DNA from: a virus
Lineage: Duplodnaviria > Heunggongvirae > Uroviricota > Caudoviricetes
Reading direction: 5' to 3' (one strand)
Virus record (IMG/VR): IMGVR_UViG_3300011727_000001
Coordinates: 19,900 to 83,899 of that record
Length of the DNA stretch: 64,000 bases
Below the pieces are notes generated by a model that searched no databases, was not told the DNA's origin, and worked only from the letters and a program-made list of their open reading frames with translations. Positions 8,780 to 42,174 of the stretch are shown piece by piece. Position 1 is the first letter of the stretch; every line of letters begins with the position of its first letter. The position numbers and the translations under genes are program-made.

Positions 8780-8905
8780 GAGAAGGTTGGCGATTACTTA
8801 TGCGCGGTTCGAAGAATTCCCCTGCCCCACATTCGTCGCACTCCTCGCGCGTAAACTTCGTGGAATAAAAGCGACATCCTGTGCATTCGGGAAACTTCGG
8901 CTCTT

Positions 8906-13730: not shown

Positions 13731-14193
13731 AGCTGACAGTCTCCACTTTACCGCCAGTCCACGGATCAAGCTGAATTGCCAGCTCAACCGCTTCAACGGC
13801 ACTCCTGCCCAGAACCATAGCGGCAAGTGCAGTCTGCTCACCGCTGCCAATTGCGTAGTAATCGGCCTTTAGAGGGCCGCTGAAAGCCTGTCCATCATCC
13901 CAGTAGTAGGCATCACCGGCTTTATCGACAACGAGCGCCTGGACGCCGTATTCGCGATCTGCATTAATTCTGGTCAGATCGCTACTTCCAGTCCCAAGAT
14001 GCTCAACAAGAAGGTGTAGGAAGCACGTTGGCTCGCCAACCTTACTGGACGAGATGCCGATGAGAAAATCACCGATCTTAAAGACTTTGCTTTTGGAGCC
14101 GATCGGATGTTTATCACCAGACCATGCTCGGCTGTCTCCAGCCATAATTCCATCACGATAAGCAATTGTGGTCATTGGAACGCTTTCTGACAT
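13723..14193 (-). CDS. HslV/proteasome-beta-like Ntn-hydrolase peptidase; mature N-terminus probably the MTTIAY start near 14175
   Basis: TTIAYRDGIMAGDSR matches the HslV TTIVSVRRNGHVVIAGDGQ region. KVFKIGDFLIGISS matches KVRRLYNDKVIAGFAG. YAIGSGEQTALAA matches IAIGSGGPYAQAA. Confidence 0.65.
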   Translation of the reverse strand: MSESVPMTTIAYRDGIMAGDSRAWSGDKHPIGSKSKVFKIGDFLIGISSSKVGEPTCFLHLLVEHLGTGSSDLTRINADREYGVQALVVDKAGDAYYWDDGQAFSGPLKADYYAIGSGEQTALAAMVLGRSAVEAVELAIQLDPWTGGKVETVSYD

Positions 14194-23799: not shown

Positions 23800-24347
23800 T
23801 TGCCTGCCTCCTTGGCCGTGACTGCAGGGAAAAGAGCGCGGATGGCGGCAGCTCCATGCTTAAGCCCGCTTTCTTGTCCTTTTTCAAATGCCTTCCAATC
23901 TGCTAATCCAGCGCAGTCAGCGACGTGATAGGAAAGCACAGCATTCTCAACGACCTCGGCACACTCTTCACGCACCGCTACCAGATCAACAGGCTTGGTG
24001 ACTACGCAGGTGAGAATGCGGCGCTCAAAATCAGCTTGCGCGGCGGTTTCAGCCGCGATGTCATCTTGAAATTCAGAATGGTGATCCTCTTGATGGGGAA
24101 GATATAAACGCCAGACCCCATTTTCATTTTGGATCACATAATCACCGAATGCCGTTTTCGCCTCGCGATTAAGAGAGCGAGAACAGAAAATCCGCCAATT
24201 CAGTTTTGTTATCTCTACTGCGCAAGGCATAGAGAGATGGGGAATAATTGCGAGTAACGCCTTTTCCAACATAACTGCCGGGATGTTACCTTGCGTCGCG
24301 TCAAGCGCATCCTGCATAGCAATATCCGGTATTTGAATCGCCGTCAT
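23796..24347 (-). CDS. Hypothetical protein
   Basis: 183 aa. Confidence 0.35.
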   Translation of the reverse strand: MTAIQIPDIAMQDALDATQGNIPAVMLEKALLAIIPHLSMPCAVEITKLNWRIFCSRSLNREAKTAFGDYVIQNENGVWRLYLPHQEDHHSEFQDDIAAETAAQADFERRILTCVVTKPVDLVAVREECAEVVENAVLSYHVADCAGLADWKAFEKGQESGLKHGAAAIRALFPAVTAKEAGK

Positions 24348-24943
24348 ACCGCGACCCCTTTCGTATCCAAATCATAGAGATGGGTTTTGCAGATCGACAT
24401 CGCCTTGTTCCAGAGCGTCGTATCGGCGTCGAGTAGAGCGCGCTCCAGCAATTCCTTTTTCTCACGCAGATAAAGCGGGGCGAATTGCGGATCGTGCTGA
24501 ACGATGGTGGACGTGTTATCTATAAGGTCGGCGACCTTGACGGTCTGCACCCATGCCGGCGCCTGCTTGATACGCTCAAGGTTCAGCTCAAACCGGGCTT
24601 TGCGATTTCCCGCCGACAAATCCACATTGGTCAAAGCCTTTACACCTCTTCCAACCTGTGGCCCGAATACCTGTTCGATGTATTCCAGCGTGACTTTGGT
24701 ATCTTCTACCACATCATGCAGATATGCCGTGGCGACAGCTGTCCAGGGAATGTTCGGCACTTCTTCGACAAGGCGCGCGACAGCGGTTGGATGGACGATA
24801 TATGGCTCACCGGTATATTTGCGAGTTTGACCGACCGCCATATGTGCGACTGTGGCTAAAAACATCGCTTCACGGATAATGGATTGGCCAAGCATTCCGG
24901 CTCTTACCATAACTCTCTCCTGTTGAACCTGACCCAAGGTCAA
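24344..24943 (-). CDS. HD-domain small alarmone hydrolase, (p)ppGpp-hydrolase-like (SpoT/Mesh1 family)
   Basis: GEPYIVHPTAVARLV...AYLHDVVEDT matches the RelA/SpoT hydrolase motif GEPYI(T)HPL(A)VA...LLHDV(I)EDT. ~190 aa single domain. Confidence 0.65.
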   Translation of the reverse strand: MTLGQVQQERVMVRAGMLGQSIIREAMFLATVAHMAVGQTRKYTGEPYIVHPTAVARLVEEVPNIPWTAVATAYLHDVVEDTKVTLEYIEQVFGPQVGRGVKALTNVDLSAGNRKARFELNLERIKQAPAWVQTVKVADLIDNTSTIVQHDPQFAPLYLREKKELLERALLDADTTLWNKAMSICKTHLYDLDTKGVAV

Positions 24944-31048: not shown

Positions 31049-31345
31049 CTATGTGCCTCGTTTCGAGGCCCAGTTCCGTTTCAACTCTATTATACCTTTT
31101 AGCGCAGCGTGATGCTCATACTTGGGATGACGGCGCCAGAAGGCTAGTGATTTCTCACACTGAACCAGTTCTTTTTCCGCCTGTCTTTTATCTGCAACGG
31201 TAGAAAGAGGATTGTCGCGAACAAATATGAGGAAGAGCTGCTGATCGTAATGTTTGAGATAGTGCTTTGTGCCATCCCAATTCCAAGGATTCAAGGCCGG
31301 TCGTGCTGAACCCGCTGTTCTTGACGTGTTATAAAAGAAAGTCAT
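31049..31345 (-). CDS. Hypothetical protein
   Basis: 98 aa. Confidence 0.35.
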   Translation of the reverse strand: MTFFYNTSRTAGSARPALNPWNWDGTKHYLKHYDQQLFLIFVRDNPLSTVADKRQAEKELVQCEKSLAFWRRHPKYEHHAALKGIIELKRNWASKRGT

Positions 31346-31501
31346 TTCATGCCTCGCTATTTAGCTTTATCGCTATTTAGATAATAAGCTAACAAACGAC
31401 GGCAGACGGCTGGAGACTTAAGGCGCACCCATGGGACGCGCCGGCCAGCAAAAAGCCCAGAGCTTTAACTCTGGGCTTCTCGCTGCGTCTGGGAGGACGG
31501 C

Positions 31502-32365
31502 TTATCGGATATTCAGAAATGGAACGGTTGAGCCGGGAACGAACTGCTGCGGCAGAGCGCCATCCCATTTTTGAGCTTTCGTCAGTTCAACCAGATTAGG
31601 ACTATCACGCAAGGCGTCTGATTTTGCTTTAATAGCCGACGCCTCCGCTTCACCTTTTAGACGAGTGGATTCGGCTTCAGCGGCTGCTTCCGCAAGTTTA
31701 ACCTTCGCATTTGCTTCCGCTTCATTTACCCGGATCTGGTTGTCAACTTCGGCGCGTTTCAACTCTTCACGACGTGTATTTGTTGCCATTTCAGCTCTGG
31801 CGCGATCTTCGGCTGCTCGCTCGACGGTATCGGAAAAATTGATATTCTCGATATTGATACCTTCGATCTTAATCTGACGATCGCCGATAACAGCAACAGC
31901 TGAGGATAGCTCGGTATTCAAACGGCCACGTTCGCGAATAGCAGCTTCTGCATTGAATTTGCCAAATACGCTTTTGATATGCTCACGAACCTGACGTTTA
32001 AGAACGCGATCTTCAAATCCGGCAAGCGTCTGATATTCCCGGTAGACAGACATAATCACATCGTCGGTGGAAACCGGGGCGTAATTGATTGAGAAGGTTA
32101 CATTCGCTGTCTGGCGATCTGAGGTGTAAACCGGCTCATTCGGAAATTCGATAACCTGGGTGCGTGTGGAGATGTATTTCACATCGTCAATGAATGGCTT
32201 TTTAAGGTGAAAGCCTGGCTGGGCAACACCGGCGATTTTACCCTGACTGACGATAACACCGCGCTCACCTTCATCGACGGTGTAGAACGAACCACCGAGA
32301 AGTCCGATAGCGAAAATTGCGACAATGCCAGCTACAATAAGCTTTGCGATGGATGATGGTTTCAT
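31502..32365 (-). CDS. SPFH/band-7 (prohibitin/HflKC-like) membrane protein
   Basis: N-terminal TM, then YTVDEGERGVIVSQGK and an SPFH core, then a coiled-coil Ala/Glu-rich tail. Confidence 0.7.
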   Translation of the reverse strand: MKPSSIAKLIVAGIVAIFAIGLLGGSFYTVDEGERGVIVSQGKIAGVAQPGFHLKKPFIDDVKYISTRTQVIEFPNEPVYTSDRQTANVTFSINYAPVSTDDVIMSVYREYQTLAGFEDRVLKRQVREHIKSVFGKFNAEAAIRERGRLNTELSSAVAVIGDRQIKIEGINIENINFSDTVERAAEDRARAEMATNTRREELKRAEVDNQIRVNEAEANAKVKLAEAAAEAESTRLKGEAEASAIKAKSDALRDSPNLVELTKAQKWDGALPQQFVPGSTVPFLNIR

Positions 32366-32478
32366 TTCTTGCCTTTCTTGGCAGTTGATTTGGAGAAATA
32401 ATCGAGAATTACTTTGACGCCTGTGGCTACCAGCACGGCAACGACGATGGCGCCTAAGACGGTCAGGAAGAACATTGG
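32362..32478 (-). CDS. Small TM peptide (38 aa) coupled to the SPFH gene
   Basis: MFFLTVLGAIVVAVLVATGVKV.... Overlaps the SPFH start (ATGA). Confidence 0.3.
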   Translation of the reverse strand, partial: PMFFLTVLGAIVVAVLVATGVKVILDYFSKSTAKKGKK

Positions 32479-32485
32479 AGCCTCC

Positions 32486-32616
32486 TAGAAAATCAGCTTA
32501 ACGAGGCCGATACAGCCAATAAGCAAGGCGAAAGCGACGGCCAGAAACACCGGACCGTAATTACCGTTAAACGCGGTTCCGTTTTCGTTGATGGTGTTCA
32601 TATCTTCGGGTTTCAT
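32486..32616 (-). CDS. Small TM peptide (43 aa)
   Basis: MKPEDMNTINENGTAFNGNYGPVFLAVAFALLIGCIGLVKLIF. Confidence 0.3.
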
Positions 32617-32707
32617 GACGGGCTTTCCTGAACATCAAAGCGGCACTCATCACCAAGCCGAGTAGAAGAGTTCCAATCCAGATGGTGATGAGGCGCTCAA
32701 GCATTGA

Positions 32708-33109
32708 TTAACCCAGTGTTGGGCGGTGGCCGGCTTTAGCAGCTGCAACTGCCTGACCGATGATATCTGCGATCACATGAGCCGGATGGAGACCGTCACC
32801 GATGTCCATGATGCTGACTGAAACCACCGGCTCTTCGCATGTAGAGCAGCAACCGGCTTCCGCTTCTTCATCAGCGTCTTCCACACCAAGTTCTGTCAGT
32901 TCATCGCAAAGATCCTGCTCGGCGACACCGGCGTCGAAAGAGAGAAGCTTGGTGATTGTGGCGAGGGTTTCAGCTGTAACTGGAATAGCCAGACCGGGAT
33001 TTGCACGGGTCGAAACGATGATGCCGCTTTCCATATCTTTCAGAACGCGACGAGCGCCGGCGAGCTGGGTTTTAACTTTGACGGCTTTTTCCAAGTTATT
33101 GATGTGCAT
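32708..33109 (-). CDS. Hypothetical protein
   Basis: 133 aa, acidic, Cys cluster. Confidence 0.35.
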   Translation of the reverse strand: MHINNLEKAVKVKTQLAGARRVLKDMESGIIVSTRANPGLAIPVTAETLATITKLLSFDAGVAEQDLCDELTELGVEDADEEAEAGCCSTCEEPVVSVSIMDIGDGLHPAHVIADIIGQAVAAAKAGHRPTLG

Positions 33110-33156
33110 GTCGCACTCCTTTTGATTTATCAGGGTAAGTAGCTGAGCTAAATAAA

Positions 33157-33187
33157 TTAACTCAGCGCTTACTTATTTTATAGCAAA
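33157..33187 (-). promoter_or_regulatory. Promoter-like motif
   Basis: TTAACTCAGCGCTTACTTATTTTATAGCAAAC. Confidence 0.45.
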
Positions 33188-33221
33188 CAAAATTCAGGAA
33201 TACATGAGGTTAGTTCAGGTA

Positions 33222-34664
33222 TTATGCGACTTTTTGTTGGGTTGTTTCATTAAAGCCAAGGCGAAGATCCAGCGCGTAACCGGCCTCATCACTGCGTTTA
33301 CGAACGGCTTCGAAGCTTTCACCTTCATAGTGACCATTCATATAGATCACCTTCAGGGCGTTGGCGTCGATCTGCTCCGGCGTGGCTTCACTTTCTTTCA
33401 GAACCACACTGGTATTGCCATCGCGAAGAACGATCTGACGACCAGCCTTGGACGTCTTAGAGGGATCGGTCGCTGGCTTTTTCTGAATATCTTCCCAGCC
33501 TGCACCGGTAGAAATTGCGTTGGCTTTCATGGCGAAATTCAGATCGTTACGAGTATGGCTTTGCAGCAATCCGCCGCCCATACCAAATGCGATATTGTCG
33601 ATGGAGAAACCAGCTGCAGCCATTTCAACCATAAGATTAGCAATCGATTCCGCGTTCATACCGTCGCCTTGAATGACGCCGACTTTCGAGTTCAGAACGC
33701 GATGACCTTTGCTGTTCACGGTGCCGCCGAATTTATCCCAAAGGATTTGCAGCGTTTTGATTGGTGTAAGAACCGGGTCTCCCGAATCCGGACGCACAAT
33801 CAGTTTCCCGCCGATCTTCATGATCTTATCGCGCAGCTCGCCGCCGTAGATATTTTCCAGGGCGTTAAACAGATCATAGCTGTCTGAAACAACCGAGAAC
33901 ATACCGTCCCCAAAGGCGTCGATCATATTGCTATAAGCTTTCGCCTCGCCATCGCGACCCCAAGAGGTCATAGTCGAGTGCTCTGAGGCAGGGATCGAAT
34001 AACCGGCGCAGATATTCCGATCATTATAAATACGGCGAACCGCGAGAAGTCCTTCGATCGTATCTGTGCCTTGGAAGTTAATCAGGTGCGCCATTGCGCC
34101 CAGACCGGCAGATTCACCGCTCGATACACCGCGTCCGCCGAAGTCATGCAATTTGAACGGCAGACCGTCCAGGTTATCGCATGTAAGGCGCATCATTCCC
34201 CGGATCATCGCTTTGACGTGGAAAGAGGTTGTCGCAACAGAGGTAGGATACCAGATGGCGCGAAGCATTGCTGTTTCAACGAAGCTTGTCAGCCAAGGCA
34301 GATCAGGGTCAGTGTTGCGAACCTGAACCAGAGGCACGCTCTTTTCCACATAGCTGCCTTCTGGCAGCGATTGAATCTCCAACGGCAGGTAACCGTTGTG
34401 CTTCATCACAATGTGCTCCCAGCCAGCGCGATTGAACGGCAGACCGTGTGTCTTCATCAACGCTTCGGCTTCGTCAATCATTGATGGCGTGATCTGATGC
34501 ATCAGATAATCGCGAATGAAGGCGTGAATGCCGACAAACAGGACGCCGCCTGGCTGATCAGTTGGGCGGGATTCGATATACGAGGACATGAACTTTGTGT
34601 TCGGCGGCAGCTGGAGAAAATGCGAGTGCTTATAGCTATCACTCGCCAGAATGATATTCGTCAT
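33222..34664 (-). CDS. nadV: Nicotinamide phosphoribosyltransferase (NAMPT/NadV family)
   Basis: 480 aa. N-terminal NIILASDSYKHSHF...PPNT matches the NAMPT NILLATDSYK signature. Length fits. Confidence 0.8.
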   Translation of the reverse strand: MTNIILASDSYKHSHFLQLPPNTKFMSSYIESRPTDQPGGVLFVGIHAFIRDYLMHQITPSMIDEAEALMKTHGLPFNRAGWEHIVMKHNGYLPLEIQSLPEGSYVEKSVPLVQVRNTDPDLPWLTSFVETAMLRAIWYPTSVATTSFHVKAMIRGMMRLTCDNLDGLPFKLHDFGGRGVSSGESAGLGAMAHLINFQGTDTIEGLLAVRRIYNDRNICAGYSIPASEHSTMTSWGRDGEAKAYSNMIDAFGDGMFSVVSDSYDLFNALENIYGGELRDKIMKIGGKLIVRPDSGDPVLTPIKTLQILWDKFGGTVNSKGHRVLNSKVGVIQGDGMNAESIANLMVEMAAAGFSIDNIAFGMGGGLLQSHTRNDLNFAMKANAISTGAGWEDIQKKPATDPSKTSKAGRQIVLRDGNTSVVLKESEATPEQIDANALKVIYMNGHYEGESFEAVRKRSDEAGYALDLRLGFNETTQQKVA

Positions 34665-34673
34665 AGTAACCTC

Positions 34674-35702
34674 TTAGAGCAGGTTGGAGATGAGGGTGAA
34701 GTGATCTTCGAAGAACCGGTCTGAACCGAGATCATCGAAGTAATACCAATCCGCGTGAGCGGCATCGTCGCCGCCGGCGACAGCGGGAAGATCAATGTGG
34801 TTCGGGATGACAAACATATACATCATCGAAACCACACGACCGCGCAGTGACCGTGACGGATTATCGGCAAGCTCGTGGCTGGCCAGATTATGTTCGATGT
34901 TGGACAGATCGAGACCGGTTTCTTCCTTCAGCTCACGCTTAGCGGCTTCAAGAAAAGTTTCACCGCTTTCAACGAAACCGCCGGGTGTCGCGAGCAATCC
35001 GCGTCCAATTGCTTTACCGCGTGTCACAAGCAGGATCTTACCGCGATGAACAACGAGAGCGTCTGCGGCGAGAAATGGCCCTGTGCCGTATTCTTCACGG
35101 TTACGCTGATATGTATCGACCTCAGCCACAAGGTTTTTGAACGCATCGCTGAAAGTGAATGCTTTCATCCAAGGCAAGAGGCGAGCGGAGACTGCATCTT
35201 GCGGCAGGCGCGGCAGGCGGCGCAAATATTCGATCCGAATATCGGAAGCGTTAATGGTGCCATGCTGGGCTGTCAGCTGAACGGAGTTCCATTCGGGAAA
35301 CATATTCAGATAGTAGGACGAGGCATCTTTGCCGTATCCGGTTAACGCAATCGTTACGTCGCGCAGACCATGATTACGAAAACCACCGCCGTTGAGATGA
35401 TCCAAGACAGCTTCGTTAACGGTTTTGCGCAGTTCATTCGCCCAACGATAGTCCGGCTGGTAATCGCGAAGAGGGGCGATGATAATGCGGCCGGACATTA
35501 CTTCGTGACGGAACACGCTTTCGATCATTTCTTTTCGTTCATCAAAGGTGAACGGGTTGATCGGCGTGCGAGCCTGATAGGCAGAGCCGACAATCAGAAT
35601 GAGAGTTTCAACCTTGTTCAAGGCTTCGCGAATAACGTGCTCATGCCCGATATGCAGTGGCTGGAAGCGCCCAATGTAAACGCCGTAATTGTAGTCAGCC
35701 AT
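34674..35702 (-). CDS. Bifunctional NMN adenylyltransferase (NadM-type) with C-terminal Nudix hydrolase
   Basis: N-terminal GRFQPLHIGH nucleotidyltransferase motif. C-terminal Nudix box GGFVESGETFLEAAKRELKEETGL. Confidence 0.8.
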   Translation of the reverse strand: MADYNYGVYIGRFQPLHIGHEHVIREALNKVETLILIVGSAYQARTPINPFTFDERKEMIESVFRHEVMSGRIIIAPLRDYQPDYRWANELRKTVNEAVLDHLNGGGFRNHGLRDVTIALTGYGKDASSYYLNMFPEWNSVQLTAQHGTINASDIRIEYLRRLPRLPQDAVSARLLPWMKAFTFSDAFKNLVAEVDTYQRNREEYGTGPFLAADALVVHRGKILLVTRGKAIGRGLLATPGGFVESGETFLEAAKRELKEETGLDLSNIEHNLASHELADNPSRSLRGRVVSMMYMFVIPNHIDLPAVAGGDDAAHADWYYFDDLGSDRFFEDHFTLISNLL

Positions 35703-35898
35703 GAAAGATATTCCTTTTTATGTTGAAGATTTTATCGCCGCATCGCGCCACTTCCCCGTCGAAATCATCAATAGGATCAGAGTAGTAGGTGCTGCCGTCT
35801 TTCACGCCGGATATCTTGTGAGCTACACCGGCGACGATTATGCGATCGCTTCCAATGTTGAGAAATCTTGCGCTATGCAGAGTTGCTTCGGTTTTCAT
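35695..35898 (-). CDS. Hypothetical protein
   Basis: 67 aa. Confidence 0.3.
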   Translation of the reverse strand: MKTEATLHSARFLNIGSDRIIVAGVAHKISGVKDGSTYYSDPIDDFDGEVARCGDKIFNIKRNIFHG

Positions 35899-35905
35899 GA
35901 TTAGC

Positions 35906-35932
35906 CTATGAGTAATCAGTTACTTATTACGC
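35906..35932 (-). promoter_or_regulatory. Promoter-like motif
   Basis: CTATGAGTAATCAGTTACTTATTACGC. Confidence 0.45.
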
Positions 35933-35938
35933 GGCTGA

Positions 35939-36280
35939 TTAAAAATCACCGTTGCTCTGTCTGGTGCTTAGAAGGTCGAGACCAAACTTAATTGCCGAAC
36001 AATACGAAGGTTTGGCTAAGTGGCTTTCGGGAAATTCGCGATTGGATAGAAGAGGTGAGCCGTCGGATGTCTTACGAGCCGGTTTGTATTCGCGATTAAT
36101 CAGAATACACCGTGCTGTATGATCGCCGAGTCCATAACAGGGTAATTCAGCCATCTTCGGCACACTTTCGCCGACTGTAGAAAGAGCTGAATACGTGGTC
36201 GCTAATGCGGGATTGCTAATCATAGCGAGTGCGGCGGTTGTTGCGAAAAACTTGGTGATCTTCATGATTTTCACTTTCAT
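35939..36280 (-). CDS. Small secreted protein (signal peptide, Cys-containing)
   Basis: MKVKIMKITKFFATTAALAMISNPALA. Confidence 0.4.
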   Translation of the reverse strand: MKVKIMKITKFFATTAALAMISNPALATTYSALSTVGESVPKMAELPCYGLGDHTARCILINREYKPARKTSDGSPLLSNREFPESHLAKPSYCSAIKFGLDLLSTRQSNGDF

Positions 36281-36368
36281 TTATTGCGATGATTATTTTT
36301 CGCATGATCAGACGAGGGATGCGGGAGGATAGTGAAGGAACTTTCGCTCCTTCACTATTTTGAGAGGG

Positions 36369-36789
36369 TTATTCTTCGTCGAGGGCGGCCAGCTCCTTCA
36401 TAAGTTCTTCCTTGGATTTCGCTTTCAGGTCGCCTTCTTCGCGAACCGAGATAGCTTCGAGAATGCGTTGGCGCTGAGCGGCCTTTTCGCGTTTCTTCAA
36501 CACGGCCGATGCTTCTTCGGTCTTGACCGCATAAACACGCTTCACGATTTCCAGCTCGGCTTCGAGCAGAGTTTTTCGGTCGTTATCCTTTTTCAGGATC
36601 GCGCCACCCAGGATACTACCGGTTGAAAGTTTTTCGATTTCCGAATTGATCTGCTGCGCGATAGCTTCAAGATCAAAGCCATCTTTCGAGGAGACCGGAA
36701 CCTCCCAAAGCTGCTCGGTATTGATGAAGCCACGATTGGTCGGAAAACGCGATTTACTGCGCGAGGCGAGTTCGAAAATATTCATATCC
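36369..36789 (-). CDS. Hypothetical protein (start probably the internal MDMNIF)
   Basis: The N-terminal part of the track ORF overlaps the upstream 668-aa gene in another frame. Confidence 0.35.
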
Positions 36790-36831
36790 ATCTTCCTTAT
36801 GGATTCGAGTTGAGAGGGATGCGGCGCCGGA

Positions 36832-38838
36832 TCAGAACTTGATCCGGTAAGCCTTACTGCCGCGAGTTGTATCGACAACGACAACAGCTTCATCTTTACG
36901 GGTTGAGGAGAAGCCAACGCCTGAAAGCTGCTCAGTTGACGGCTGTGTTTTTGTTTTCGCACCCAGCACTTCAAAGACCTTCCGATGTTCTTCGAGGTCG
37001 CCGCGCAGAAATTCATTGTAAATTCCGCGTGCCTGGTCGGGATTCAGACAATCCTTGAGGATAAAGAACCAGTGCTTGTTGCCGATCTGCTGGCTATCCC
37101 AGTGATTAGGGGAGGCGAGCAGTGTATTTACCGGCACAAGGGTCTCGGTTGAGACGCCCCATTTTTCGATCGATCCGGATGTCGGTGACAGCTTTTCGCT
37201 AGGTTTGAAGTCCGTTACCGTGCCATTCTTCACAATGAAACTGGCAAGGGTGATGCGTTCACCTGGGGTGACAATTTTCGGATAACTGAATGTCTTAGTT
37301 TCGCCGTTGAAGTAGAACTCAACTTCAAAACCAACATCTTCACGCCGACGCTGACTGTATTGATGCACTTCGATGGTGTAAGCGCCATCGCGTGGCTTGC
37401 GCCAGCTAAGATTTTCAACCGGTGCTTTTGGATCGTGCTTATCCATACCGTTCATGTCCACGTCCAAGACGCCATGACGATTGCGATAATAAATATGACC
37501 TTCTGGGGCAATGGCGTGCAGATCGAGATCGTCGGCGTTATGCCATGAAAGCGAGACACGCAGCGGAACGTCGATATTACCACCGGCGCGCTTAACGCGC
37601 TCTTTGATGGAGTCGGTCACATCGCCATTATAAGACCAGGCGAAATCATTATCCCATTTAAACAGCTTACCGGTGTTTTCCTGCAGCGGTGCCGTCATGC
37701 TCATGAAATTACCGAGGTGTTGATTTTCAACCAGCAATTTAATGGAGCGCGCGGTCGGCACGATGTTTGCCAAGAAATCATCAATTGAGATATTTTCGGC
37801 CTTATCGATTTTAACCGCTGTTGGTTTAACCGCTTCCATCAGAAGGTCAGTCAAACCGCCCTTCATTTGACCGCGCACAGCGTTATCAACGAACAGAACA
37901 TTATTGACGGATACATCGGACAGTTTTGCAAAGCGACGATGGATAGCGCCTTCCAGACCCAGCACATGCAGTTTAGCAACCGCCTGTTCGATCATCTTTG
38001 GCGTAATCAAAGAGGAGGAGCGCTTGTAATTCTGCGGTGCAACCTTGCTTTCGTATTTAGCAACTGCCTTTTCCAGCTCAACACCATCAGACAGATCCAC
38101 AACCAATGTGCCGATCACTGTATTGCGGAAGAGAGCTACCGGATTGATACGGTTACCGCCCAATGTGTGAGCGAGATTTGACCAGGAAAAGGCTTCTTTA
38201 TTGTCGGACTTATCAAAATCCGCTTTCAACTTCCGGAAGGCTTTCACAGCATCTGCGAATTCAGCGCCGCGATAGATACTGTTGGATTTGATCAGATCAT
38301 CGACCGTTGTAAGAGCGTCATTGGTCAGCTCTGTAAGGCCGCGCCAGAAAACACCGTAATTTGTATTGATTGAGCCGCGATCAGCGTCCGGCTTCGGCGA
38401 GAAATGACGATTTTCGATCGGAACCAGAAAGTGATTGAAGGTATGGGATGTGCCGTCAATCAGCTCATAATTCTGTTTGTGACCGAACTGACGTTCGCGA
38501 GTGCGGAATACACCGTTGATCAGGTGCGCTTGAACCACTTCGTGCAGTTTCTTCGCAACCACGTCATATGGATAAGGAAGGTTTGGAATATCCCAGAGTG
38601 TTTCAAGTTTGCCGTTGATGATAGCGACAACATGACCGACATTACGAATGAAGGAACGATCGTAAGAACCGTCGTGAACAGTGCGAACACGGAAAATAGG
38701 ATCAGTGCCTTCAGGAAAGGTTTCGAGATAGGTCTCCCACAGCTGGTCACGCTCTACACCGACGGTATAAAGCTCATGCTTTGACAGCTGGGCGAAACGA
38801 TGCGCCACAAGATTGGCGAACTTAACAAATTCAGACAT
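36832..38838 (-). CDS. Large protein of unknown function (668 aa)
   Basis: Long uninterrupted ORF, RBS and promoter motif upstream. No recognisable motif. Confidence 0.5.
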   Translation of the reverse strand: MSEFVKFANLVAHRFAQLSKHELYTVGVERDQLWETYLETFPEGTDPIFRVRTVHDGSYDRSFIRNVGHVVAIINGKLETLWDIPNLPYPYDVVAKKLHEVVQAHLINGVFRTRERQFGHKQNYELIDGTSHTFNHFLVPIENRHFSPKPDADRGSINTNYGVFWRGLTELTNDALTTVDDLIKSNSIYRGAEFADAVKAFRKLKADFDKSDNKEAFSWSNLAHTLGGNRINPVALFRNTVIGTLVVDLSDGVELEKAVAKYESKVAPQNYKRSSSLITPKMIEQAVAKLHVLGLEGAIHRRFAKLSDVSVNNVLFVDNAVRGQMKGGLTDLLMEAVKPTAVKIDKAENISIDDFLANIVPTARSIKLLVENQHLGNFMSMTAPLQENTGKLFKWDNDFAWSYNGDVTDSIKERVKRAGGNIDVPLRVSLSWHNADDLDLHAIAPEGHIYYRNRHGVLDVDMNGMDKHDPKAPVENLSWRKPRDGAYTIEVHQYSQRRREDVGFEVEFYFNGETKTFSYPKIVTPGERITLASFIVKNGTVTDFKPSEKLSPTSGSIEKWGVSTETLVPVNTLLASPNHWDSQQIGNKHWFFILKDCLNPDQARGIYNEFLRGDLEEHRKVFEVLGAKTKTQPSTEQLSGVGFSSTRKDEAVVVVDTTRGSKAYRIKF

Positions 38839-38854
38839 CGGGTTTTTCTACTCC

Positions 38855-38888
38855 GTTAAGTAATCAGTTACTGATTATTGCAAATAAA
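38855..38888 (-). promoter_or_regulatory. Promoter-like motif
   Basis: CCGTTAAGTAATCAGTTACTGATTATTGCAAATAAA. Confidence 0.45.
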
Positions 38889-38925
38889 ATCTAGCAATCT
38901 CTTGAGTGGATTGCGGGAGGGTTGT

Positions 38926-39150
38926 TTAGAAACCGCCTGGTTTAAGGTGGTTGCAGTGAGTGCAAATTTTGTCGTCGGAATACACAACGGTAAAAACGTG
39001 TGGGCCGCCAAATCGAGCGATTTCAATTCCAATTGAACGCCATTTATGTCGATTAAGACGACATAGAAGCTTCCTTACGAGCTTTCGCACGGGCTTGCCT
39101 TTCTCTGTATTGAGTAAGGAGAACATCGGATTCAGCCCAATCATGAACAT
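38926..39150 (-). CDS. Small zinc-finger-like protein
   Basis: 74 aa, C-terminal CTHCNH. Confidence 0.3.
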   Translation of the reverse strand: MFMIGLNPMFSLLNTEKGKPVRKLVRKLLCRLNRHKWRSIGIEIARFGGPHVFTVVYSDDKICTHCNHLKPGGF

Positions 39151-39361
39151 TCGCGATGTGGGTTGCGCAGTTGCAGCGCCAGCATTTGGCTTTTAGACGG
39201 ACGTGGTGGGTGCCTAGATTATCAACCACCCCAGGCTCTGGTTGAAGATATGGTTCACCTCCCCACCATCCAGCGCACCAGATGTGTCCGAAGAGACGGC
39301 ACATAATACCAGTCTTCTCCCATTTATTGGCTTTCCAACGAAGAACAACGCGCTCCGTCAT
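39053..39361 (-). CDS. Small Cys/His/Trp-rich protein
   Basis: 102 aa. CWRCNC. Confidence 0.3.
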   Translation of the reverse strand: MTERVVLRWKANKWEKTGIMCRLFGHIWCAGWWGGEPYLQPEPGVVDNLGTHHVRLKAKCWRCNCATHIANVHDWAESDVLLTQYRERQARAKARKEASMSS

Positions 39362-39954
39362 TCTTCTTCCACCGTTTCATCATCGCCGCCTGGATCGAAA
39401 TCGATCAATACTCGCCGCGGTCGGCCGCCTTCACCATATTCGATGTAAACGGGGTATGAACCATCACCATAAAAGGTCGAGATCATCACACCCATACCAT
39501 CGTGTCCGCCATCATGCTGAAAAGATGCGAAACCTTTATCAACCGTAGTTGGTGTGAAGGGATTTGCTGCTTCAAATTCTTTATAAATACGGTCGATCAG
39601 ATCACGTTTGGCGATATTCTCTGGCGTATTCCATTTTTGATGTTCAGGCTGAACACCTTCGATGCGTGGGTTGGCCATCAACCAGTTTCGCCACTCTGTA
39701 TGTTCATGAAGGAAGTTGTCGCGATTGTTAGCCCAGCGCTGAAATTCACGACTGCGGTCATTATATCCGGAGCGCTTAAAGAAGCGATCACAAATGCCAT
39801 GCCAGTTATCGCCCAGATCTTTCGGACGAGCTTCGTTATTATCCTTCAGAACATAGCAGCCATCACCGATCCAGATAGAGCCGGCGTCAACATCAATGGA
39901 ACTTACTTCCAAGAAATTTGGAAATTTTGGATGAGAGTTTTGAACATCAGCCAT
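39358..39954 (-). CDS. Hypothetical protein
   Basis: ~198 aa from MADVQ. Confidence 0.35.
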   Translation of the reverse strand: MADVQNSHPKFPNFLEVSSIDVDAGSIWIGDGCYVLKDNNEARPKDLGDNWHGICDRFFKRSGYNDRSREFQRWANNRDNFLHEHTEWRNWLMANPRIEGVQPEHQKWNTPENIAKRDLIDRIYKEFEAANPFTPTTVDKGFASFQHDGGHDGMGVMISTFYGDGSYPVYIEYGEGGRPRRVLIDFDPGGDDETVEEE

Positions 39955-40304
39955 CACGCATACTCCTCCGCCCAAGTCTCTGCGAAACGGCAGTTCCCCG
40001 GCATGTCAGCAAACATCGGGCGAATTTCTTCGCGCTTATAACCGGCCAAACCACAGCCGATCGGCGTGACATAAAAGGTCATTTCCTGGTGGGATCGGGC
40101 GAAGGTTTTAAATTCTTCGACTGATTTGCGAATGCGTTCGAGTGGCAAGGTGCGGATCTGATGATCCTTGGTTGGAATGGCATAACTGCGCCCCTGCAAG
40201 CCTTCACCTTGAAACAGAATTGCTCCGTGTTTGCGCAGCGCGTCCAATGCAGCTCCGGCACCGTGTCGTCCAGCGAGGTTGGAGCCAAAAACAAAAATAT
40301 CCAT
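39954..40304 (-). CDS. Hypothetical protein, possible Rossmann-like nucleotide-binding fold (tentative)
   Basis: Pattern IFVFGSNLAGRHGAGAA...GRSYAIPTKD...VTPIGCGLAGY. No firm family assignment. Confidence 0.3.
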   Translation of the reverse strand: MDIFVFGSNLAGRHGAGAALDALRKHGAILFQGEGLQGRSYAIPTKDHQIRTLPLERIRKSVEEFKTFARSHQEMTFYVTPIGCGLAGYKREEIRPMFADMPGNCRFAETWAEEYA

Positions 40305-40307
40305 TTT

Positions 40308-40336
40308 CTTTCTCTCTATCAGTAAGTGATTAGTTA
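40308..40336 (-). promoter_or_regulatory. Promoter-like motif (variant AGTAAGTGATTAGTTACTATTA)
   Basis: Near-identical to the copy at 11521-11545. Confidence 0.45.
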
Positions 40337-40770
40337 CTATTATCGACGGAATTAATGCCTAATGTGGCCAAATAATCCGCTCTTTCATTTAGCGAATGAC
40401 CGGTATGACCTCGAATCCAGTTGAAGCTGACCTCATGCGCCTTGCAAAGCGCGTCAAGTTCCTTCCAGAGGTCGACGTTCTTGATGGCTTTACCTTTTGT
40501 TTTCCAGCCACGCTTTACCCAGCCATCGATCCATTTAGTCATACCATTCCGCACATATTGGCTATCGGTATAAACTTCGACGATCTGCCTTGGTCGCGTA
40601 ATAGCTTTCAATCCTTGAATTACAGCCATCAGCTCCATACGATTATTGGTCGTATCAATTTCCCCGCCATAAATTTCTTTTGAATGGCCTTTGTATCGAA
40701 GTATCGCCGCCCACCCGCCAACTCCCGGATTTGGTCTGCAGCCGCCATCTGTGTAAATTTCAATTGTCAT
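40330..40770 (-). CDS. rnhA: Ribonuclease HI
   Basis: IEIYTDGGCRPNPGVGGWAAIL, TNNRMEL, YTDSQYV and HTGHSLNERAD active-site motifs. Confidence 0.85.
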   Translation of the reverse strand: MTIEIYTDGGCRPNPGVGGWAAILRYKGHSKEIYGGEIDTTNNRMELMAVIQGLKAITRPRQIVEVYTDSQYVRNGMTKWIDGWVKRGWKTKGKAIKNVDLWKELDALCKAHEVSFNWIRGHTGHSLNERADYLATLGINSVDNSN

Positions 40771-41276
40771 TAAGGTTCAACCCTTTCAGCAAAAGCGACC
40801 ACTTGAACGCCCTTCGAGGTATTCCAATCGATGCAGCCACGAGCTGGCTCATCCGGAACGAGAAAGATCCGGAGCGTATGCTCGTCAGCGTTTTTAGGTT
40901 CTTCTGGGGAGAGAGTGGCTTCGAACGTATCTACCGCGTTCATTGTCTCCCAAAACTTACGCCACATATCGAACGCAACTTCGGGGTTTTCAGCGCGAAC
41001 AAACTGATCTGCGCTGTCGCCGTTGGCATCGTAGCCGGTGATGAAGTAGAGATTGAAGGCCGGAGTGATTTCAGCATCCTCGGCTTTCTCGGTTTCACCT
41101 TCCATAATAATCGTGTCGTCAAACGTGCGAATATCGTCCGTTTCGGCCCAATCCAACTTGGAGGCGTTTTCCCGAAGGGCGGCGAATTTCTCAGCGTCCT
41201 CGGCAGATTTTGCTTGAACAATAGCCTGTTCAATAAGGTAGGCGTCGCGACCGCGCTTAACCAAGTAATTCTGCAT
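40770..41276 (-). CDS. Hypothetical acidic protein
   Basis: 168 aa. Confidence 0.35.
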   Translation of the reverse strand: MQNYLVKRGRDAYLIEQAIVQAKSAEDAEKFAALRENASKLDWAETDDIRTFDDTIIMEGETEKAEDAEITPAFNLYFITGYDANGDSADQFVRAENPEVAFDMWRKFWETMNAVDTFEATLSPEEPKNADEHTLRIFLVPDEPARGCIDWNTSKGVQVVAFAERVEP

Positions 41277-41290
41277 TTTCTCTCTCCTGC

Positions 41291-41316
41291 ACTAAGTGCT
41301 TACTTATTTATAGCGG
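41291..41316 (-). promoter_or_regulatory. Promoter-like motif
   Basis: ACTAAGTGCTTACTTATTTATAGCGG. Confidence 0.45.
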
Positions 41317-41391
41317 ACTTAAAAAGGGTCGCATCGGGTTTCTTATTTGCGGCGTATTTATTTTCACGAATACGCCGCAAACTCTTCGATC

Positions 41392-42174
41392 TTAGGGTGC
41401 TGGATTGAGGATAGCTCGGAGTTTTACGGCTACTGCAGAGTTTGCATTCAGCTCAAGGGACTGTTTTGTGCGCGTGGCGATCTTCACAGTGTCGAACAGG
41501 TTCATAATCTGTCCGGCTTGACTACGAGCCGTTCCCTCGTTGTAACCTTCAGTATCAGATTTGGCACCGGCCATTTTATAAGCCGCAACAAGCTCGGTGG
41601 AGGACATCGTGCCGGTCTTTTCGAGCAGATTGAATGCCATCACGACGAATGTAGATGGCGCGCGGCCGGAGGCCAGTGACGTAAAGAGATTTTCAAACTT
41701 CTCCGCAACTTTCTTCTGTGTAGGGATGAGTTTAAGCGTATCAGCTTTGACTTGATCCAACGCCGCATCATCGAGCGGAACGCTGCTGACTTCGAGCAGA
41801 AAGTATTCCGAGGCGACACTGTTAAGGTCACGCGCTACGCGCGGCGCGGCTGGCGCACGGGGAGTTTTTGACGCCTTAACGACTGTCTGTGTCGTAGCGG
41901 GCGCGGCTGCGATAGCGCTCTCCTGTTCCGCATACGCCTCCTGGCGTTCGATTGTTGCCTCAACCTTGCGAAGATCGCTTTCGTCCAGCGTAAGATCATC
42001 CAGGCTTGTATCGATTTCCGGGTTTTCGACGACAACATCGGCAACAGCCTGATCAACGGCTTCGATTAATTCTTCCAGATCATCATCAGAGCCGCTAATT
42101 TCGAGATCGCCCAGAAGATTATCAATCTCCGACATATCAGTGGCGCTTACTGTTTTATTATTCGCATCCATCAT
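41392..42174 (-). CDS. Hypothetical protein with a strongly acidic N-terminal half
   Basis: 260 aa. First ~90 aa very rich in Asp/Glu. Confidence 0.35.
   Translation of the reverse strand: MMDANNKTVSATDMSEIDNLLGDLEISGSDDDLEELIEAVDQAVADVVVENPEIDTSLDDLTLDESDLRKVEATIERQEAYAEQESAIAAAPATTQTVVKASKTPRAPAAPRVARDLNSVASEYFLLEVSSVPLDDAALDQVKADTLKLIPTQKKVAEKFENLFTSLASGRAPSTFVVMAFNLLEKTGTMSSTELVAAYKMAGAKSDTEGYNEGTARSQAGQIMNLFDTVKIATRTKQSLELNANSAVAVKLRAILNPAP

What the first reader, a model, noticed from the sequence alone, without database searches (positions are those of the whole stretch)
33222..35702. Two-gene NAD+ salvage module (NAMPT plus NMNAT-Nudix), matching the phage NAD+-reconstitution anti-defence strategy
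A NadV-type nicotinamide phosphoribosyltransferase is followed at a 10-bp gap by a NadM-type NMN adenylyltransferase fused to a Nudix ADP-ribose pyrophosphatase. This is the gene pair first seen in vibriophage KVP40. It is now understood to rebuild NAD+ after NAD+-depleting host immunity such as Thoeris, DSR and SIR2-type effectors (the NARP2 pathway). Its presence suggests the host carries NADase-based defence.
Basis: established knowledge. Interest (0 to 1): 0.6.

Follow-up and report, generated by a model that had tools for sequence, protein, structure and literature searches.

The report
Phage NAD+ salvage operon (NARP2-type)
A virus of bacteria carries two adjacent, intact enzyme genes that should rebuild the cofactor NAD+ from nicotinamide, a trick already shown in related phages to defeat bacterial immune systems that destroy NAD+; so this is a clear but ordinary new example of a known system.

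Summary
Two intact minus-strand genes are separated by 9 bp. The first (34674-35702, 342 aa) is a NadM-type NMN adenylyltransferase fused to a Nudix hydrolase. The second (33222-34664, 480 aa) is a NadV/NAMPT-type nicotinamide phosphoribosyltransferase.

- **Corrections:** transcription order is NMNAT-Nudix, then NAMPT. The gap is 9 bp, not 10.
- **Active sites:** every catalytic residue or motif I checked is conserved in both proteins.
- **Clade:** the NAMPT groups with the "Nmnat-associated" (NARP2) and cellular NAMPT clade, 100/100 bootstraps, against the NARP1 Namat clade.
- **Closest relative:** Rhizobium phage B1VFA, about 62% identity. It is already listed as NARP2-type in the paper that defined the pathway.
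- **Context:** the window is a ~110-kb lytic-type phage with portal, terminase, rIIA/B, RNR and SbcCD genes. It is colinear with Rhizobium phage RHEph10, which lacks the module. The module therefore sits in a ~10-kb variable island.

The NARP2 reading is supported by homology only; neither enzyme activity nor anti-defence was tested here. The host is unknown, because the window's GC (49%) does not match its 60%-GC Rhizobium-phage relatives. The claim that the host carries NADase defences therefore cannot be tested.

Verdict: new member of a known kind, low interest.

The parts
34674..35702 (-). Gene 1 of the pair: a bifunctional NadM-type NMN adenylyltransferase (about aa 1-191, nt 35130-35702) fused to a Nudix hydrolase (aa 212-336, nt 34695-35069). 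342 aa.
   Evidence: - Pfam CTP_transf_like 9.8e-11 and NUDIX 7.3e-18.
- NCBIfam PRK05379 bifunctional NMNAT/Nudix models aligned end to end (best 261.7 bits, 1.1e-77). This is below the curated equivalog cut-off of 397.
- Full-length alignment to PDB 2QJO (4e-53) and 2QJT (5e-46).
- Motif GRFQPLHIGH at aa 11-20.
- Perfect Nudix box GX5EX7REUXEEXGU at aa 242-264.
34665..34673 (-). 9-bp intercistronic spacer (GAGGTTACT) that carries the Shine-Dalgarno sequence for NAMPT.
   Evidence: Read directly from the sequence: TAA-GAGGTTACT-ATG.
33222..34664 (-). Gene 2 of the pair: NadV/NAMPT-type nicotinamide phosphoribosyltransferase, 480 aa.
   Evidence: - Pfam NAMPT_N plus NAPRTase.
- NCBIfam PRK09198, 564.6 bits, above the cut-off of 405.
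- phrog_448, 1.8e-151.
- Human NAMPT residues conserved (human position to window position): Y18 = Y11, F193 = F175, R196 = R178, D219 = D201, H247 = H229, R311 = R291, D313 = D293, G353/D354 = G333/D334, G383-385 = G363-365, R392 = R372 (read from the alignment).
- 44% identity to KVP40 NadV.
- Falls in the NARP2-type clade, 100/100 bootstraps.
35695..35898 (-). 67-aa ORF of unknown function. Its stop codon overlaps the NMNAT-Nudix start codon (ATGGCTGA). It may be a lineage-specific third gene of the operon.
   Evidence: - Called as a gene on the Logan contig.
- The overlap is read directly from the sequence.
- Homologues (37-39% identity, E 5e-5 to 1e-4 against the whole phage collection) occur only in the three B1VFA-like Rhizobium phages. 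In each they sit immediately upstream of the NMNAT-Nudix gene.
- No family hit in Pfam, NCBIfam, PHROGs or PADLOC.
33142..33166 (-). 10-bp-stem hairpin in the 112-bp intergenic region downstream of NAMPT. Possibly the 3' boundary of the transcript. There is no T-tract, so it is not a canonical intrinsic terminator.
   Evidence: The 116-nt region folds to -29.6 kcal/mol, z = -4.3, and 0 of 200 shuffles fold as well. The consensus terminator scan did not call it.
36329..36358 (-). 13-bp perfect-stem hairpin upstream of the 113-aa ORF. Possibly the end of the preceding transcription unit, which would make it the 5' boundary of the unit holding the module.
   Evidence: The 92-nt region folds to -24.7 kcal/mol, z = -6.3, and 0 of 200 shuffles fold as well. 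Its function is inferred only.

Best explanation
The locus is a phage-encoded two-enzyme nicotinamide salvage operon of the NARP2 type.

**Proposed mechanism**
1. NAMPT (33222-34664) condenses nicotinamide with PRPP to give NMN. Nicotinamide is one of the two products of TIR, SIR2 and SEFIR NADase effectors.
2. The N-terminal NadM domain of the upstream protein (34674-35702) adenylylates NMN with ATP to give NAD+.
3. The C-terminal Nudix domain most likely hydrolyses ADP-ribose, the other NADase product, to AMP and ribose-5-phosphate. Host PRPP synthetase could turn ribose-5-phosphate back into PRPP.

The two genes are translationally linked through a 9-bp spacer with its own SD. They are transcribed within the long leftward early/middle gene array, together with the nucleotide-metabolism genes. 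The net effect is to keep NAD+ available during infection even when an abortive-infection system is depleting it.

**Shown here**
- Gene integrity and domain architecture.
- Conservation of catalytic motifs.
- Clade membership.
- Operon arrangement, and its conservation in other phages.
- Accessory (variable-island) status.

**Inferred from homologues**
- The enzymatic activities.
- The substrate of the Nudix domain.
- The timing of expression.
- The anti-defence benefit.
For: **Identity of the enzymes**
- Searches give the domain, family and structure matches.
- All canonical NAMPT residues are conserved, including D219 (window D201) and H247 (window H229). From memory, D219 is associated with nicotinamide specificity and H247 is the autophosphorylated histidine.
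- The HxGH motif and a perfect Nudix box are present.

**NARP2 clade**
- NJ tree built from sequences in Table S2 of the NARP paper: window, Nmnat-associated phage Nampt, human NAMPT and bacterial NAMPT together against Adps-associated Namat, 100/100 bootstraps.
- The closest homologue, B1VFA, is labelled 'Nmnat-associated' in that table.
- 44% identity to the characterised KVP40 NadV.

**Pathway function in homologues**
- The KVP40 pair abolished type I Thoeris and DSR2 defence and raised NAD+ (bioRxiv 10.1101/2024.02.11.579819).

**Operon arrangement**
- The order NMNAT-Nudix then NAMPT recurs in B1VFA.
- It recurs in two unrelated IMG/VR contigs at 45-46% identity.
- By coordinates, it also recurs in Mesorhizobium, Ruegeria and Ralstonia phages.

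**Accessory nature**
- The window is colinear with Rhizobium phage RHEph10 (TerL 75% identical).
- RHEph10's complete genome has no NAMPT or NMNAT-Nudix; the best tblastn E-value is above 0.1.
Against: - No biochemical or phenotypic data exist for these proteins.
- The NMNAT-Nudix protein scores below every curated NCBIfam equivalog cut-off (261.7 against 397). It is therefore a divergent member.
- The Nudix substrate is not established. One review suggests the Nudix domain trims NAD+ itself.
- Only 64 kb of a genome of about 110 kb was examined, so an Adps gene or an NAD+-consuming phage enzyme elsewhere cannot be excluded.
- NARP2 raises NAD+ even without any defence system. Counter-defence is therefore not the only possible selective benefit.
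- The host and its defence repertoire are unknown.
Confidence: 0.78

Rival explanations
1. The module is a general auxiliary metabolic module. It has no specific link to immunity.
For: - NARP2 increased NAD+ even in cells without a defence system.
- The module lies in the same leftward gene array as RNR, a thymidylate synthase homologue, dUTPase and a dNMP phosphatase.
- Earlier literature treated these genes as metabolic.
Against: - The module is absent from the backbone relative RHEph10, which has the same nucleotide-metabolism set. It sits in a variable island, as expected for an accessory, host-specific function.
- Homologues have a demonstrated anti-defence effect.
- No NAD+-consuming phage enzyme (ADP-ribosyltransferase or NAD-dependent ligase) was found in the window.
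- This reading is not mutually exclusive with the main explanation.
Confidence: 0.15
2. The key anti-defence activity is the Nudix domain. It would destroy ADP-ribose-derived immune signals such as Thoeris gcADPR or His-ADPR, or toxic ADPR. NAD+ synthesis would be secondary.
For: - The Nudix box is perfectly conserved.
- Phage Nudix domains of the NadM clade are discussed as possible ADPr-derivative processors.
- A weak PADLOC hit covers only the generic Nudix core.
Against: - The fusion partner and the adjacent NAMPT are both intact and conserved as a unit across distant phages.
- I found no report that NadM-type Nudix domains cleave cyclic ADPR signals.
Confidence: 0.05
3. The phosphoribosyltransferase is either a NARP1-type Namat (ADPR-PP plus nicotinamide gives NAD+) or a nicotinate-specific NAPRT, as the NCBIfam product name 'nicotinate phosphoribosyltransferase' would suggest.
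For: - The NCBIfam PRK09198 description reads 'nicotinate phosphoribosyltransferase'.
- Namat and Nampt are homologous, and the KVP40 Nampt has weak activity on ADPR-PP.
Against: - 100/100 bootstrap separation from Adps-associated Namat.
- The motif HDFGGRGVSS matches Nampt, not the Namat form HDF(S/A)xRGM.
- No PRPS-like Adps gene in the window.
- A true NAPRT model (TIGR01513) scores only 31.8 bits against a cut-off of 297.
- The NAMPT_N domain and the D219 equivalent are present.
Confidence: 0.02

Closest known systems
NARP2 (NAD+ reconstitution pathway 2) of Vibrio phage KVP40: NadV (Nampt) plus NatV (Nmnat-Nudix). Sources: Osterman et al., bioRxiv 10.1101/2024.02.11.579819; Lee, Li & Miller 2017, J Bacteriol, cited.
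   Same: - The same two enzyme families and the same domain architectures.
- NAMPT is 44% identical to KVP40 NadV over 416 aa (7e-115).
- NatV homologues of KVP40-like vibriophages (nt-1, Va3, phi-Grn1, V09) match the 342-aa protein at 29-32% identity over 98% of its length.
- The NAMPT belongs to the same Nmnat-associated clade.
   Different: - Here the genes form a tight operon with a 9-bp spacer.
- In KVP40, no NMNAT-Nudix homologue lies within 6 kb of nadV.
- In T4-like Klebsiella phage RCIP0002, the two genes are about 100 kb apart.
- The host phage type differs: a ~110-kb phage of the RHEph10/B1VFA group rather than a 245-kb T4-like myovirus.
- Activity is untested here.
NadM-Nudix / NAMPT pair of Rhizobium phages B1VFA, V1VFA-S and RHph_X66 (B1VFA_020 and B1VFA_021).
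   Same: - Closest relatives: 63% (NMNAT-Nudix) and 60-63% (NAMPT) identity.
- Same gene order.
- Same small upstream ORF.
- A DUF8224-like protein upstream and an SPFH/prohibitin protein downstream.
- The B1VFA Nampt is already catalogued as 'Nmnat-associated'.
   Different: - The window's GC is 49%, against 59% for the B1VFA locus.
- There is no DNA-level match.
- B1VFA has RtcB ligase and an extra stand-alone Nudix in the island, and the window lacks both.
- The DUF8224 proteins are only 24% identical.
Bacterial bifunctional NadM-Nudix (Synechocystis slr0787, PDB 2QJO; Francisella, PDB 2QJT) and NadV/NAMPT (bacterial 7YQO; human 2GVG and related entries).
   Same: - Full-length alignments.
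- Conserved HxGH motif, Nudix box and NAMPT active-site residues.
- 45-47% identity to cellular NAMPTs.
   Different: - The genes are phage-borne.
- The NMNAT-Nudix falls below the curated bacterial equivalog thresholds.
- The presumed role is counter-defence rather than housekeeping salvage.
NARP1 (Adps plus Namat) and NARP3 (PnuC plus NadR-like).
   Same: The same strategic outcome: rebuilding NAD+ during infection. Namat is a homologue of NAMPT.
   Different: - No Adps, PnuC or NadR-type RNK domain is present in the window.
- The NAMPT is separated from Namat at 100/100 bootstraps.
- The substrates are PRPP plus nicotinamide, rather than ADPR-PP or nicotinamide riboside.

Membership tests
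NARP2 (Osterman et al.) | The phosphoribosyltransferase belongs to the Nmnat-associated Nampt clade (KVP40 type), not the Adps-associated Namat clade. | tested here: met
   - NJ tree with labelled sequences from the paper's Table S2: 100/100 bootstrap split.
- 62.6% identity to the 'Nmnat-associated' B1VFA protein.
- 44% identity to KVP40 NadV.
NARP2 (Osterman et al.) | An Nmnat gene is present in the same phage genome. | tested here: met
   It lies directly upstream, separated by a 9-bp spacer, and has CTP_transf_like plus NUDIX domains. It gives full-length matches to 2QJO and 2QJT.
NARP2 (Osterman et al.) | No Adps (PRPS-like) partner. NARP1 and NARP2 were never found together. | tested here: met
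   No PRPS-like PHROG hit at E<=1e-5 among the window ORFs of at least 95 aa that were scanned; a few likely antisense plus-strand ORFs were left out. This covers only 64 kb of a genome of about 110 kb, so the rest remains unseen.
NARP2 (Osterman et al.) | The pair converts nicotinamide plus PRPP plus ATP to NAD+ and rescues phage from NAD+-depleting defence. | not testable with these tools
   Requires enzyme assays and plaque assays.
NAMPT / NadV (EC 2.4.2.12) | NAMPT_N plus type II PRTase barrel architecture, with a score above the curated family threshold. | tested here: met
   Pfam PF18127 plus PF04095. NCBIfam PRK09198, 564.6 bits, above 405.
NAMPT / NadV (EC 2.4.2.12) | Catalytic and substrate residues of human NAMPT: Y18, F193, R196, D219, H247, R311, D313, G353/D354, G383-385, R392. 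| tested here: met
   All are identical in the HMMER alignment to 5NSD and 8DSC. The window positions are Y11, F175, R178, D201, H229, R291, D293, G333/D334, G363-365 and R372. The residue list and the roles of these residues come from memory of the NAMPT structural literature.
Bifunctional NadM-Nudix (NMNAT / ADP-ribose pyrophosphatase) | N-terminal HIGH-superfamily NMNAT domain with the (H/T)xGH motif, plus a C-terminal Nudix domain with an intact Nudix box. | tested here: met
   GRFQPLHIGH at aa 11-20. GFVESGETFLEAAKRELKEETGL at aa 242-264 fits GX5EX7REUXEEXGU. Pfam domains are above threshold.
Bifunctional NadM-Nudix (NMNAT / ADP-ribose pyrophosphatase) | Score above the curated NCBIfam equivalog cut-off (PRK05379 sub-models). 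| tested here: not met
   The best score is 261.7 bits against a cut-off of 397. All seven sub-models are below their cut-offs, although they align end to end. The protein is a divergent, phage-type member.
Bifunctional NadM-Nudix (NMNAT / ADP-ribose pyrophosphatase) | The Nudix domain is specific for ADP-ribose. | not tested
   I did not map ADPR-contact residues of 2QJO or 2QJT, and the substrate has to be measured. This is inferred from family membership only.

The most novel reading that the evidence does not exclude
The module may be part of a larger counter-defence unit.

First, a 67-aa gene is translationally coupled to the NMNAT-Nudix gene. Its homologues occur only beside NMNAT-Nudix: this phage plus three others, four of four occurrences. 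It could be a lineage-specific third component, for example a regulator that limits the PRPP drain or toxicity reported for NARP2.

Second, the ~10-kb variable island around it (about 31.35-41.39 kb) could be an NAD+/ADP-ribose-centred anti-defence island. It also holds an A1S_2505-family, possibly macro-like, 116-aa protein that is 85% identical to its B1VFA homologue. It further holds a DUF4241 protein and a 668-aa DUF8224 protein.
Probability: 0.15. Interest if true: 0.45.

Novelty: new member of a known kind. Interest (0 to 1): 0.2.

Why it matters
The locus adds one more well-preserved, operon-organised NARP2 instance. It lies in a phage lineage (the ~110-120-kb RHEph10/B1VFA group) where the module is clearly accessory: present in some members and absent in others. 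That pattern fits an arms-race gene rather than core metabolism.

Practically, it flags this phage as likely resistant to NAD+-depleting abortive-infection systems such as Thoeris, DSR and SIR2-type systems. It also offers a compact 2.5-kb cassette, distant from the KVP40 genes, for comparative biochemistry or for arming therapeutic phages.

It does not open a new question. The pathway, its logic and even its nearest homologue are already described.

Tried and rejected
- **Megablast of the locus against 50,697 phage records:** no match. Relatives could only be found at protein level.
- **tRNA scan:** none in the window.
- **Sigma-70 promoter and intrinsic-terminator scans of 31-39.5 kb:** counts at or below the shuffled expectation (7 against 8.7, and 6 against 9.0). 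No promoter or terminator is claimed. Only two statistically strong hairpins are reported.
- **Host inference:**
  - The genome-contig scan with the NAMPT found nothing.
  - IMG/VR gave only relatives at 45-46% identity.
  - The exact protein occurs on ~110-kb contigs from Logan, ENA and IMG, and in one NCBI record labelled Galbibacter sp. BG1. That does not establish a host.
- **NARP1 or NAPRT reading of the transferase:** rejected.
- **DUF8224 (668 aa) as a functional partner:** rejected as a specific partner. It occurs in 528 phage records from many groups, including Salmonella, Klebsiella, Escherichia, Bacillus and Caulobacter phages. I did not check whether those phages carry NARP2.
- **SPFH/prohibitin as a partner:** unlikely. 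In RHEph10 it sits elsewhere and without the module.
- **Structure of the 116-aa A1S_2505 protein:** the single-sequence AlphaFold model had pLDDT 56, too poor for a fold search. The PDB sequence search was not significant (E 0.64). The macro-like assignment therefore rests on a weak DarG hit (0.007) and on other depositors' annotations.
- **Lee et al. 2017 (PMC5388814):** not held. Its content is cited only through papers that quote it.
- **First guess at the KVP40 nadV position:** wrong. The gene was located through a second tblastn.
- **PADLOC:** only a generic Nudix hit.
Full report
**1. What is in the sequence**

The interval 33222-35702 holds two long minus-strand ORFs: 34674..35702 (342 aa) and 33222..34664 (480 aa). 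The sequence between them reads TAA-GAGGTTACT-ATG. That is a 9-bp spacer carrying a GAGG ribosome-binding site.

On the coding strand the order is therefore the 342-aa gene first and the 480-aa gene second.

A 67-aa ORF (35695..35898) ends inside the start of the 342-aa gene (ATGGCTGA overlap). The gene caller used for the public contig that carries the same proteins also called it.

**2. Identity of the two proteins**

The 480-aa protein:
- Pfam NAMPT_N (2.7e-20) plus NAPRTase (1.1e-52).
- It passes the curated NCBIfam model PRK09198 (564.6 bits, cut-off 405).
- It matches phrog_448 'nicotinamide phosphoribosyl transferase' at 1.8e-151.
- It aligns over 456-460 residues to solved bacterial (7YQO, 5e-117) and human (about 1e-110) NAMPT structures.

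I read residue correspondences from the alignment to human NAMPT chains that keep native numbering. Every residue I know to be catalytic or substrate-binding is identical (human position to window position): Y18 = Y11, F193 = F175, R196 = R178, D219 = D201, H247 = H229, R311 = R291, D313 = D293, G353/D354 = G333/D334, G383-385 = G363-365, R392 = R372. The roles of these residues come from my memory of the NAMPT structural literature. A true nicotinate PRTase model (TIGR01513) scores only 31.8 bits against a cut-off of 297.

The 342-aa protein:
- Pfam CTP_transf_like (aa 8-66) and NUDIX (aa 212-336).
- It aligns end to end with all PRK05379 'bifunctional NMN adenylyltransferase/Nudix hydrolase' models. 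The best score, 261.7 bits, is below the curated cut-off of 397.
- It aligns over its full length to the two solved bifunctional enzymes: Synechocystis 2QJO (4e-53) and Francisella 2QJT (5e-46).
- It has the nucleotidyltransferase motif GRFQPLHIGH (aa 11-20).
- It has a Nudix box that fits GX5EX7REUXEEXGU exactly (aa 242-264).

Both genes are therefore intact, and by every sequence criterion available they encode active-looking enzymes.

**3. Context: what kind of genome this is**

PHROG scans of the window's ORFs of at least 95 aa identify the following:
- portal, scaffold and large terminase;
- two ParB-like proteins and a ParA-like protein;
- a helicase and an HslV-like peptidase;
- an HD phosphohydrolase;
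- rIIA and rIIB;
- both RNR subunits, a thymidylate synthase, dUTPase and a dNMP phosphatase;
- a DnaQ-like exonuclease, an HNH endonuclease, a RuvC-like resolvase and SbcCD.

There are no tRNA genes and no DNA-level match in 50,697 phage records.

By protein similarity the nearest phages are the 115-122-kb Rhizobium phages: TerL is 75% identical to RHEph10 and 71% to B1VFA. The exact NAMPT, NMNAT-Nudix and TerL sequences occur on a 110.5-kb contig from Logan run SRR1749133 and in IMG. NAMPTs and TerLs at least 90% identical occur on other ~110-kb contigs, and in an NCBI record labelled Galbibacter sp. BG1 on a 116.5-kb contig.

The window's GC is 49%, against 60% for RHEph10 and 59% for the B1VFA locus. 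The host is therefore probably not Rhizobium, and I could not identify it.

**4. The module is accessory**

I fetched the complete RHEph10 genome and ran tblastn with the window's proteins. Forty of them have homologues, in colinear order. The NAMPT, the NMNAT-Nudix, the 668-aa DUF8224 protein, the 116-aa protein and the DUF4241 protein have none; the best E-values are 0.07 or worse.

The flanking backbone genes are window 41392-42174 and 31049-31345. In RHEph10 they are 3.3 kb apart, and that interval holds RtcB and small ORFs. In the window they are about 10 kb apart. B1VFA carries a union of both contents: A1S_2505-like, RtcB, DUF8224-like, small ORF, NMNAT-Nudix, NAMPT, prohibitin, and a stand-alone Nudix.

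The module thus sits in a variable island of an otherwise conserved early/middle gene array.

**5. Comparison with the known pathway**

The NARP paper defines NARP2 as a KVP40-type Nampt plus an Nmnat. It reports the following:
- The Nampt clade is distinct from the Adps-associated Namat clade of NARP1.
- 94% of phages with that Nampt also have an Nmnat.
- No phage carries both pathways.
- NARP2 is present in about 1.1% of phages.
- The KVP40 pair abolished type I Thoeris and DSR2 defence and raised NAD+, even without a defence system present.

Its Table S2 labels the B1VFA protein 'Nmnat-associated'. I took labelled sequences from that table (3 Nmnat-associated, 6 Adps-associated) and added human and bacterial NAMPT. 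In this set the window protein groups with B1VFA inside the Nampt/cellular clade. The split from the Adps-associated proteins has 100/100 bootstrap support. The window protein shares the HDFGxRGVSS motif rather than the Namat form HDF(S/A)xRGM.

The window NAMPT is 44% identical (7e-115) to the biochemically characterised KVP40 NadV. NatV homologues of KVP40-like vibriophages match the 342-aa protein at 29-32% identity over 98% of its length. [quoted passage not shown] No PRPS-like Adps gene was detected in the window.

**6. Gene arrangement**

The order NMNAT-Nudix then NAMPT, adjacent and on the same strand, recurs in:
- B1VFA;
- two unrelated IMG/VR contigs of 126 and 165 kb whose NAMPTs are only 45-46% identical;
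- by coordinates, Mesorhizobium phage Cp1R7A-A1, Ruegeria/Roseobacter phages and Ralstonia phiRSL1.

In KVP40 itself no NMNAT-Nudix homologue lies within 6 kb of nadV. In T4-like Klebsiella phage RCIP0002 the two genes are about 100 kb apart. The tight operon is thus a feature of this and related phage groups, not of the KVP40 prototype.

**7. Mechanism proposed**

NADase effectors split NAD+ into nicotinamide and ADP-ribose. I propose three steps:
1. NAMPT joins nicotinamide to PRPP to give NMN.
2. The NadM domain adds AMP from ATP to give NAD+.
3. The Nudix domain, by family membership, most likely cleaves ADP-ribose to AMP and ribose-5-phosphate. Host PRPP synthetase can recycle ribose-5-phosphate to PRPP.

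Steps 1 and 2 are inferred from conserved active sites and from the KVP40 biochemistry as reported in the NARP paper. Step 3 is an inference, and one review instead suggests that the Nudix domain trims NAD+.

Consensus promoter and terminator scans gave nothing above chance. Two unusually stable hairpins bracket a possible unit of the 113-aa ORF, the 67-aa ORF, NMNAT-Nudix and NAMPT:
- 36329-36358, z = -6.3;
- 33142-33166, z = -4.3.

Their function is unknown.

**8. Rivals**

- **Purely metabolic role.** This cannot be excluded and is not exclusive of counter-defence. The accessory distribution and the experimental data on homologues favour counter-defence.
- **Nudix-centred signal degradation.** This has no direct support.
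- **NARP1-type or nicotinate-specific chemistry.** The clade placement, the motifs and the model scores contradict it.

**9. Side observations**

- The 67-aa ORF has homologues only in the three B1VFA-like phages, always directly upstream of NMNAT-Nudix.
- The 116-aa ORF (39954-40304) belongs to the NCBIfam 'A1S_2505 family phage non-structural protein' (7e-46) and has a weak DarG-macrodomain hit (0.007).
  - It is 85% identical to its B1VFA homologue, far more conserved than its neighbours.
  - It occurs in 427 phage records, many from ~70-77-kb phages, and some depositors annotate it as a macro domain.
- In IMG/VR contig L006, a bona fide Pfam Macro gene lies about 0.8 kb downstream of NAMPT.
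- My single-sequence structure model of the 116-aa protein was too poor to test the fold.

These points leave open, at low probability, a broader NAD+/ADP-ribose counter-defence island.

**10. Verdict**

The system is of a known kind, and its nearest relative is already catalogued as NARP2. This is a new member rather than a new variant. A specialist would not be surprised, so interest is low (0.2).

Noticed in passing
window 39954-40304 (-): A 116-aa protein of the NCBIfam 'A1S_2505 family phage non-structural protein' (7e-46), with a weak DarG-macrodomain hit (E 0.007). It is 85% identical to B1VFA_015, far more conserved than the neighbouring genes. It occurs in 427 phage records, and some depositors annotate it as a macro domain. 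It may be an ADP-ribose-binding or -processing protein in the same variable island as the NAD+ module. The AlphaFold single-sequence model was unusable (pLDDT 56)..
   Followed up: partly
window 36832-38838 (-): A 668-aa protein of unknown function (phrog_1735, 1.8e-232; Pfam DUF8224 on the public contig), upstream of the module in the same island. A distant homologue (24% identity) occupies the equivalent place in B1VFA. Homologues occur in 528 phage records from many groups (Salmonella, Klebsiella, Escherichia, Bacillus, Caulobacter and other phages), so a specific link to NAD+ salvage is unlikely..
   Followed up: partly
window ~31346-41391: A ~10-kb variable island between backbone genes that are only 3.3 kb apart in Rhizobium phage RHEph10. 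The island holds the NAD+ module, DUF8224, DUF4241, the A1S_2505-like protein, an SPFH/prohibitin protein (31502-32365, located elsewhere in RHEph10) and several ORFs with no family match. RHEph10 and B1VFA carry an RtcB RNA ligase here, and the window does not..
   Followed up: partly
whole window: GC is 49%, whereas the closest phages (RHEph10 and the B1VFA locus) are 59-60% GC, matching their Rhizobium hosts. The host is therefore probably a lower-GC bacterium. The exact proteins occur on ~110-kb contigs in several public runs. Near-identical proteins (at least 90% identity) are in an NCBI assembly labelled Galbibacter sp. BG1 on a 116.5-kb contig, which may be a phage contig inside a bacterial assembly..
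   Followed up: partly
L006 8217-8681 (+) (IMGVR_UViG_3300046457_000084): In an unrelated 165-kb viral contig with the same NMNAT-Nudix then NAMPT operon, a Pfam Macro-domain gene (5.9e-6) lies about 0.8 kb downstream of NAMPT. This fits the reported association of ADPr-processing domains with phage NAD+ salvage genes..
   Followed up: partly
window 24344-24943 (-): A 199-aa HD_4-domain protein (Pfam 3.7e-11; phrog_990 metal-dependent phosphohydrolase). HD_4 is, from memory, the RelA/SpoT-type (p)ppGpp hydrolase domain. B1VFA annotates a '(p)ppGpp synthetase/hydrolase' gene at the edge of the fetched locus; I did not test whether it is homologous. This could be another host-takeover or counter-defence gene..
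   Followed up: no
window 8090-9634 (-), 12716-13375 (+), 13723-14193 (-): Two ParB-like proteins, a ParA-like ATPase and an HslV-family peptidase sit next to the packaging genes. RHEph10 additionally annotates a RepC-type replication protein. This raises the question of a plasmid-like (phage-plasmid) maintenance mode for this phage group..
   Followed up: no
window 33142-33166 and 36329-36358 (-): Two very stable hairpins without T-tracts (region z-scores -4.3 and -6.3) lie in intergenic regions flanking the unit that contains the module. They could be RNA-stability or termination elements. The consensus terminator scan did not detect them..
   Followed up: partly
L001 11748-12314 (+) (Rhizobium phage B1VFA_025): B1VFA carries an additional stand-alone Nudix protein (Pfam NUDIX 8.1e-11) downstream of its prohibitin gene. 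It is 50% identical over 52 aa to the Nudix core of the window's NMNAT-Nudix. The window has no counterpart..
   Followed up: partly
window 35939-36280 (-): A 113-aa ORF with a hydrophobic N-terminus resembling a signal peptide (MKVKIMKITKFFATTAALAMISNPALA). It has no family match and lies between the upstream hairpin and the 67-aa ORF, so it may be co-transcribed with the NAD+ module..
   Followed up: no
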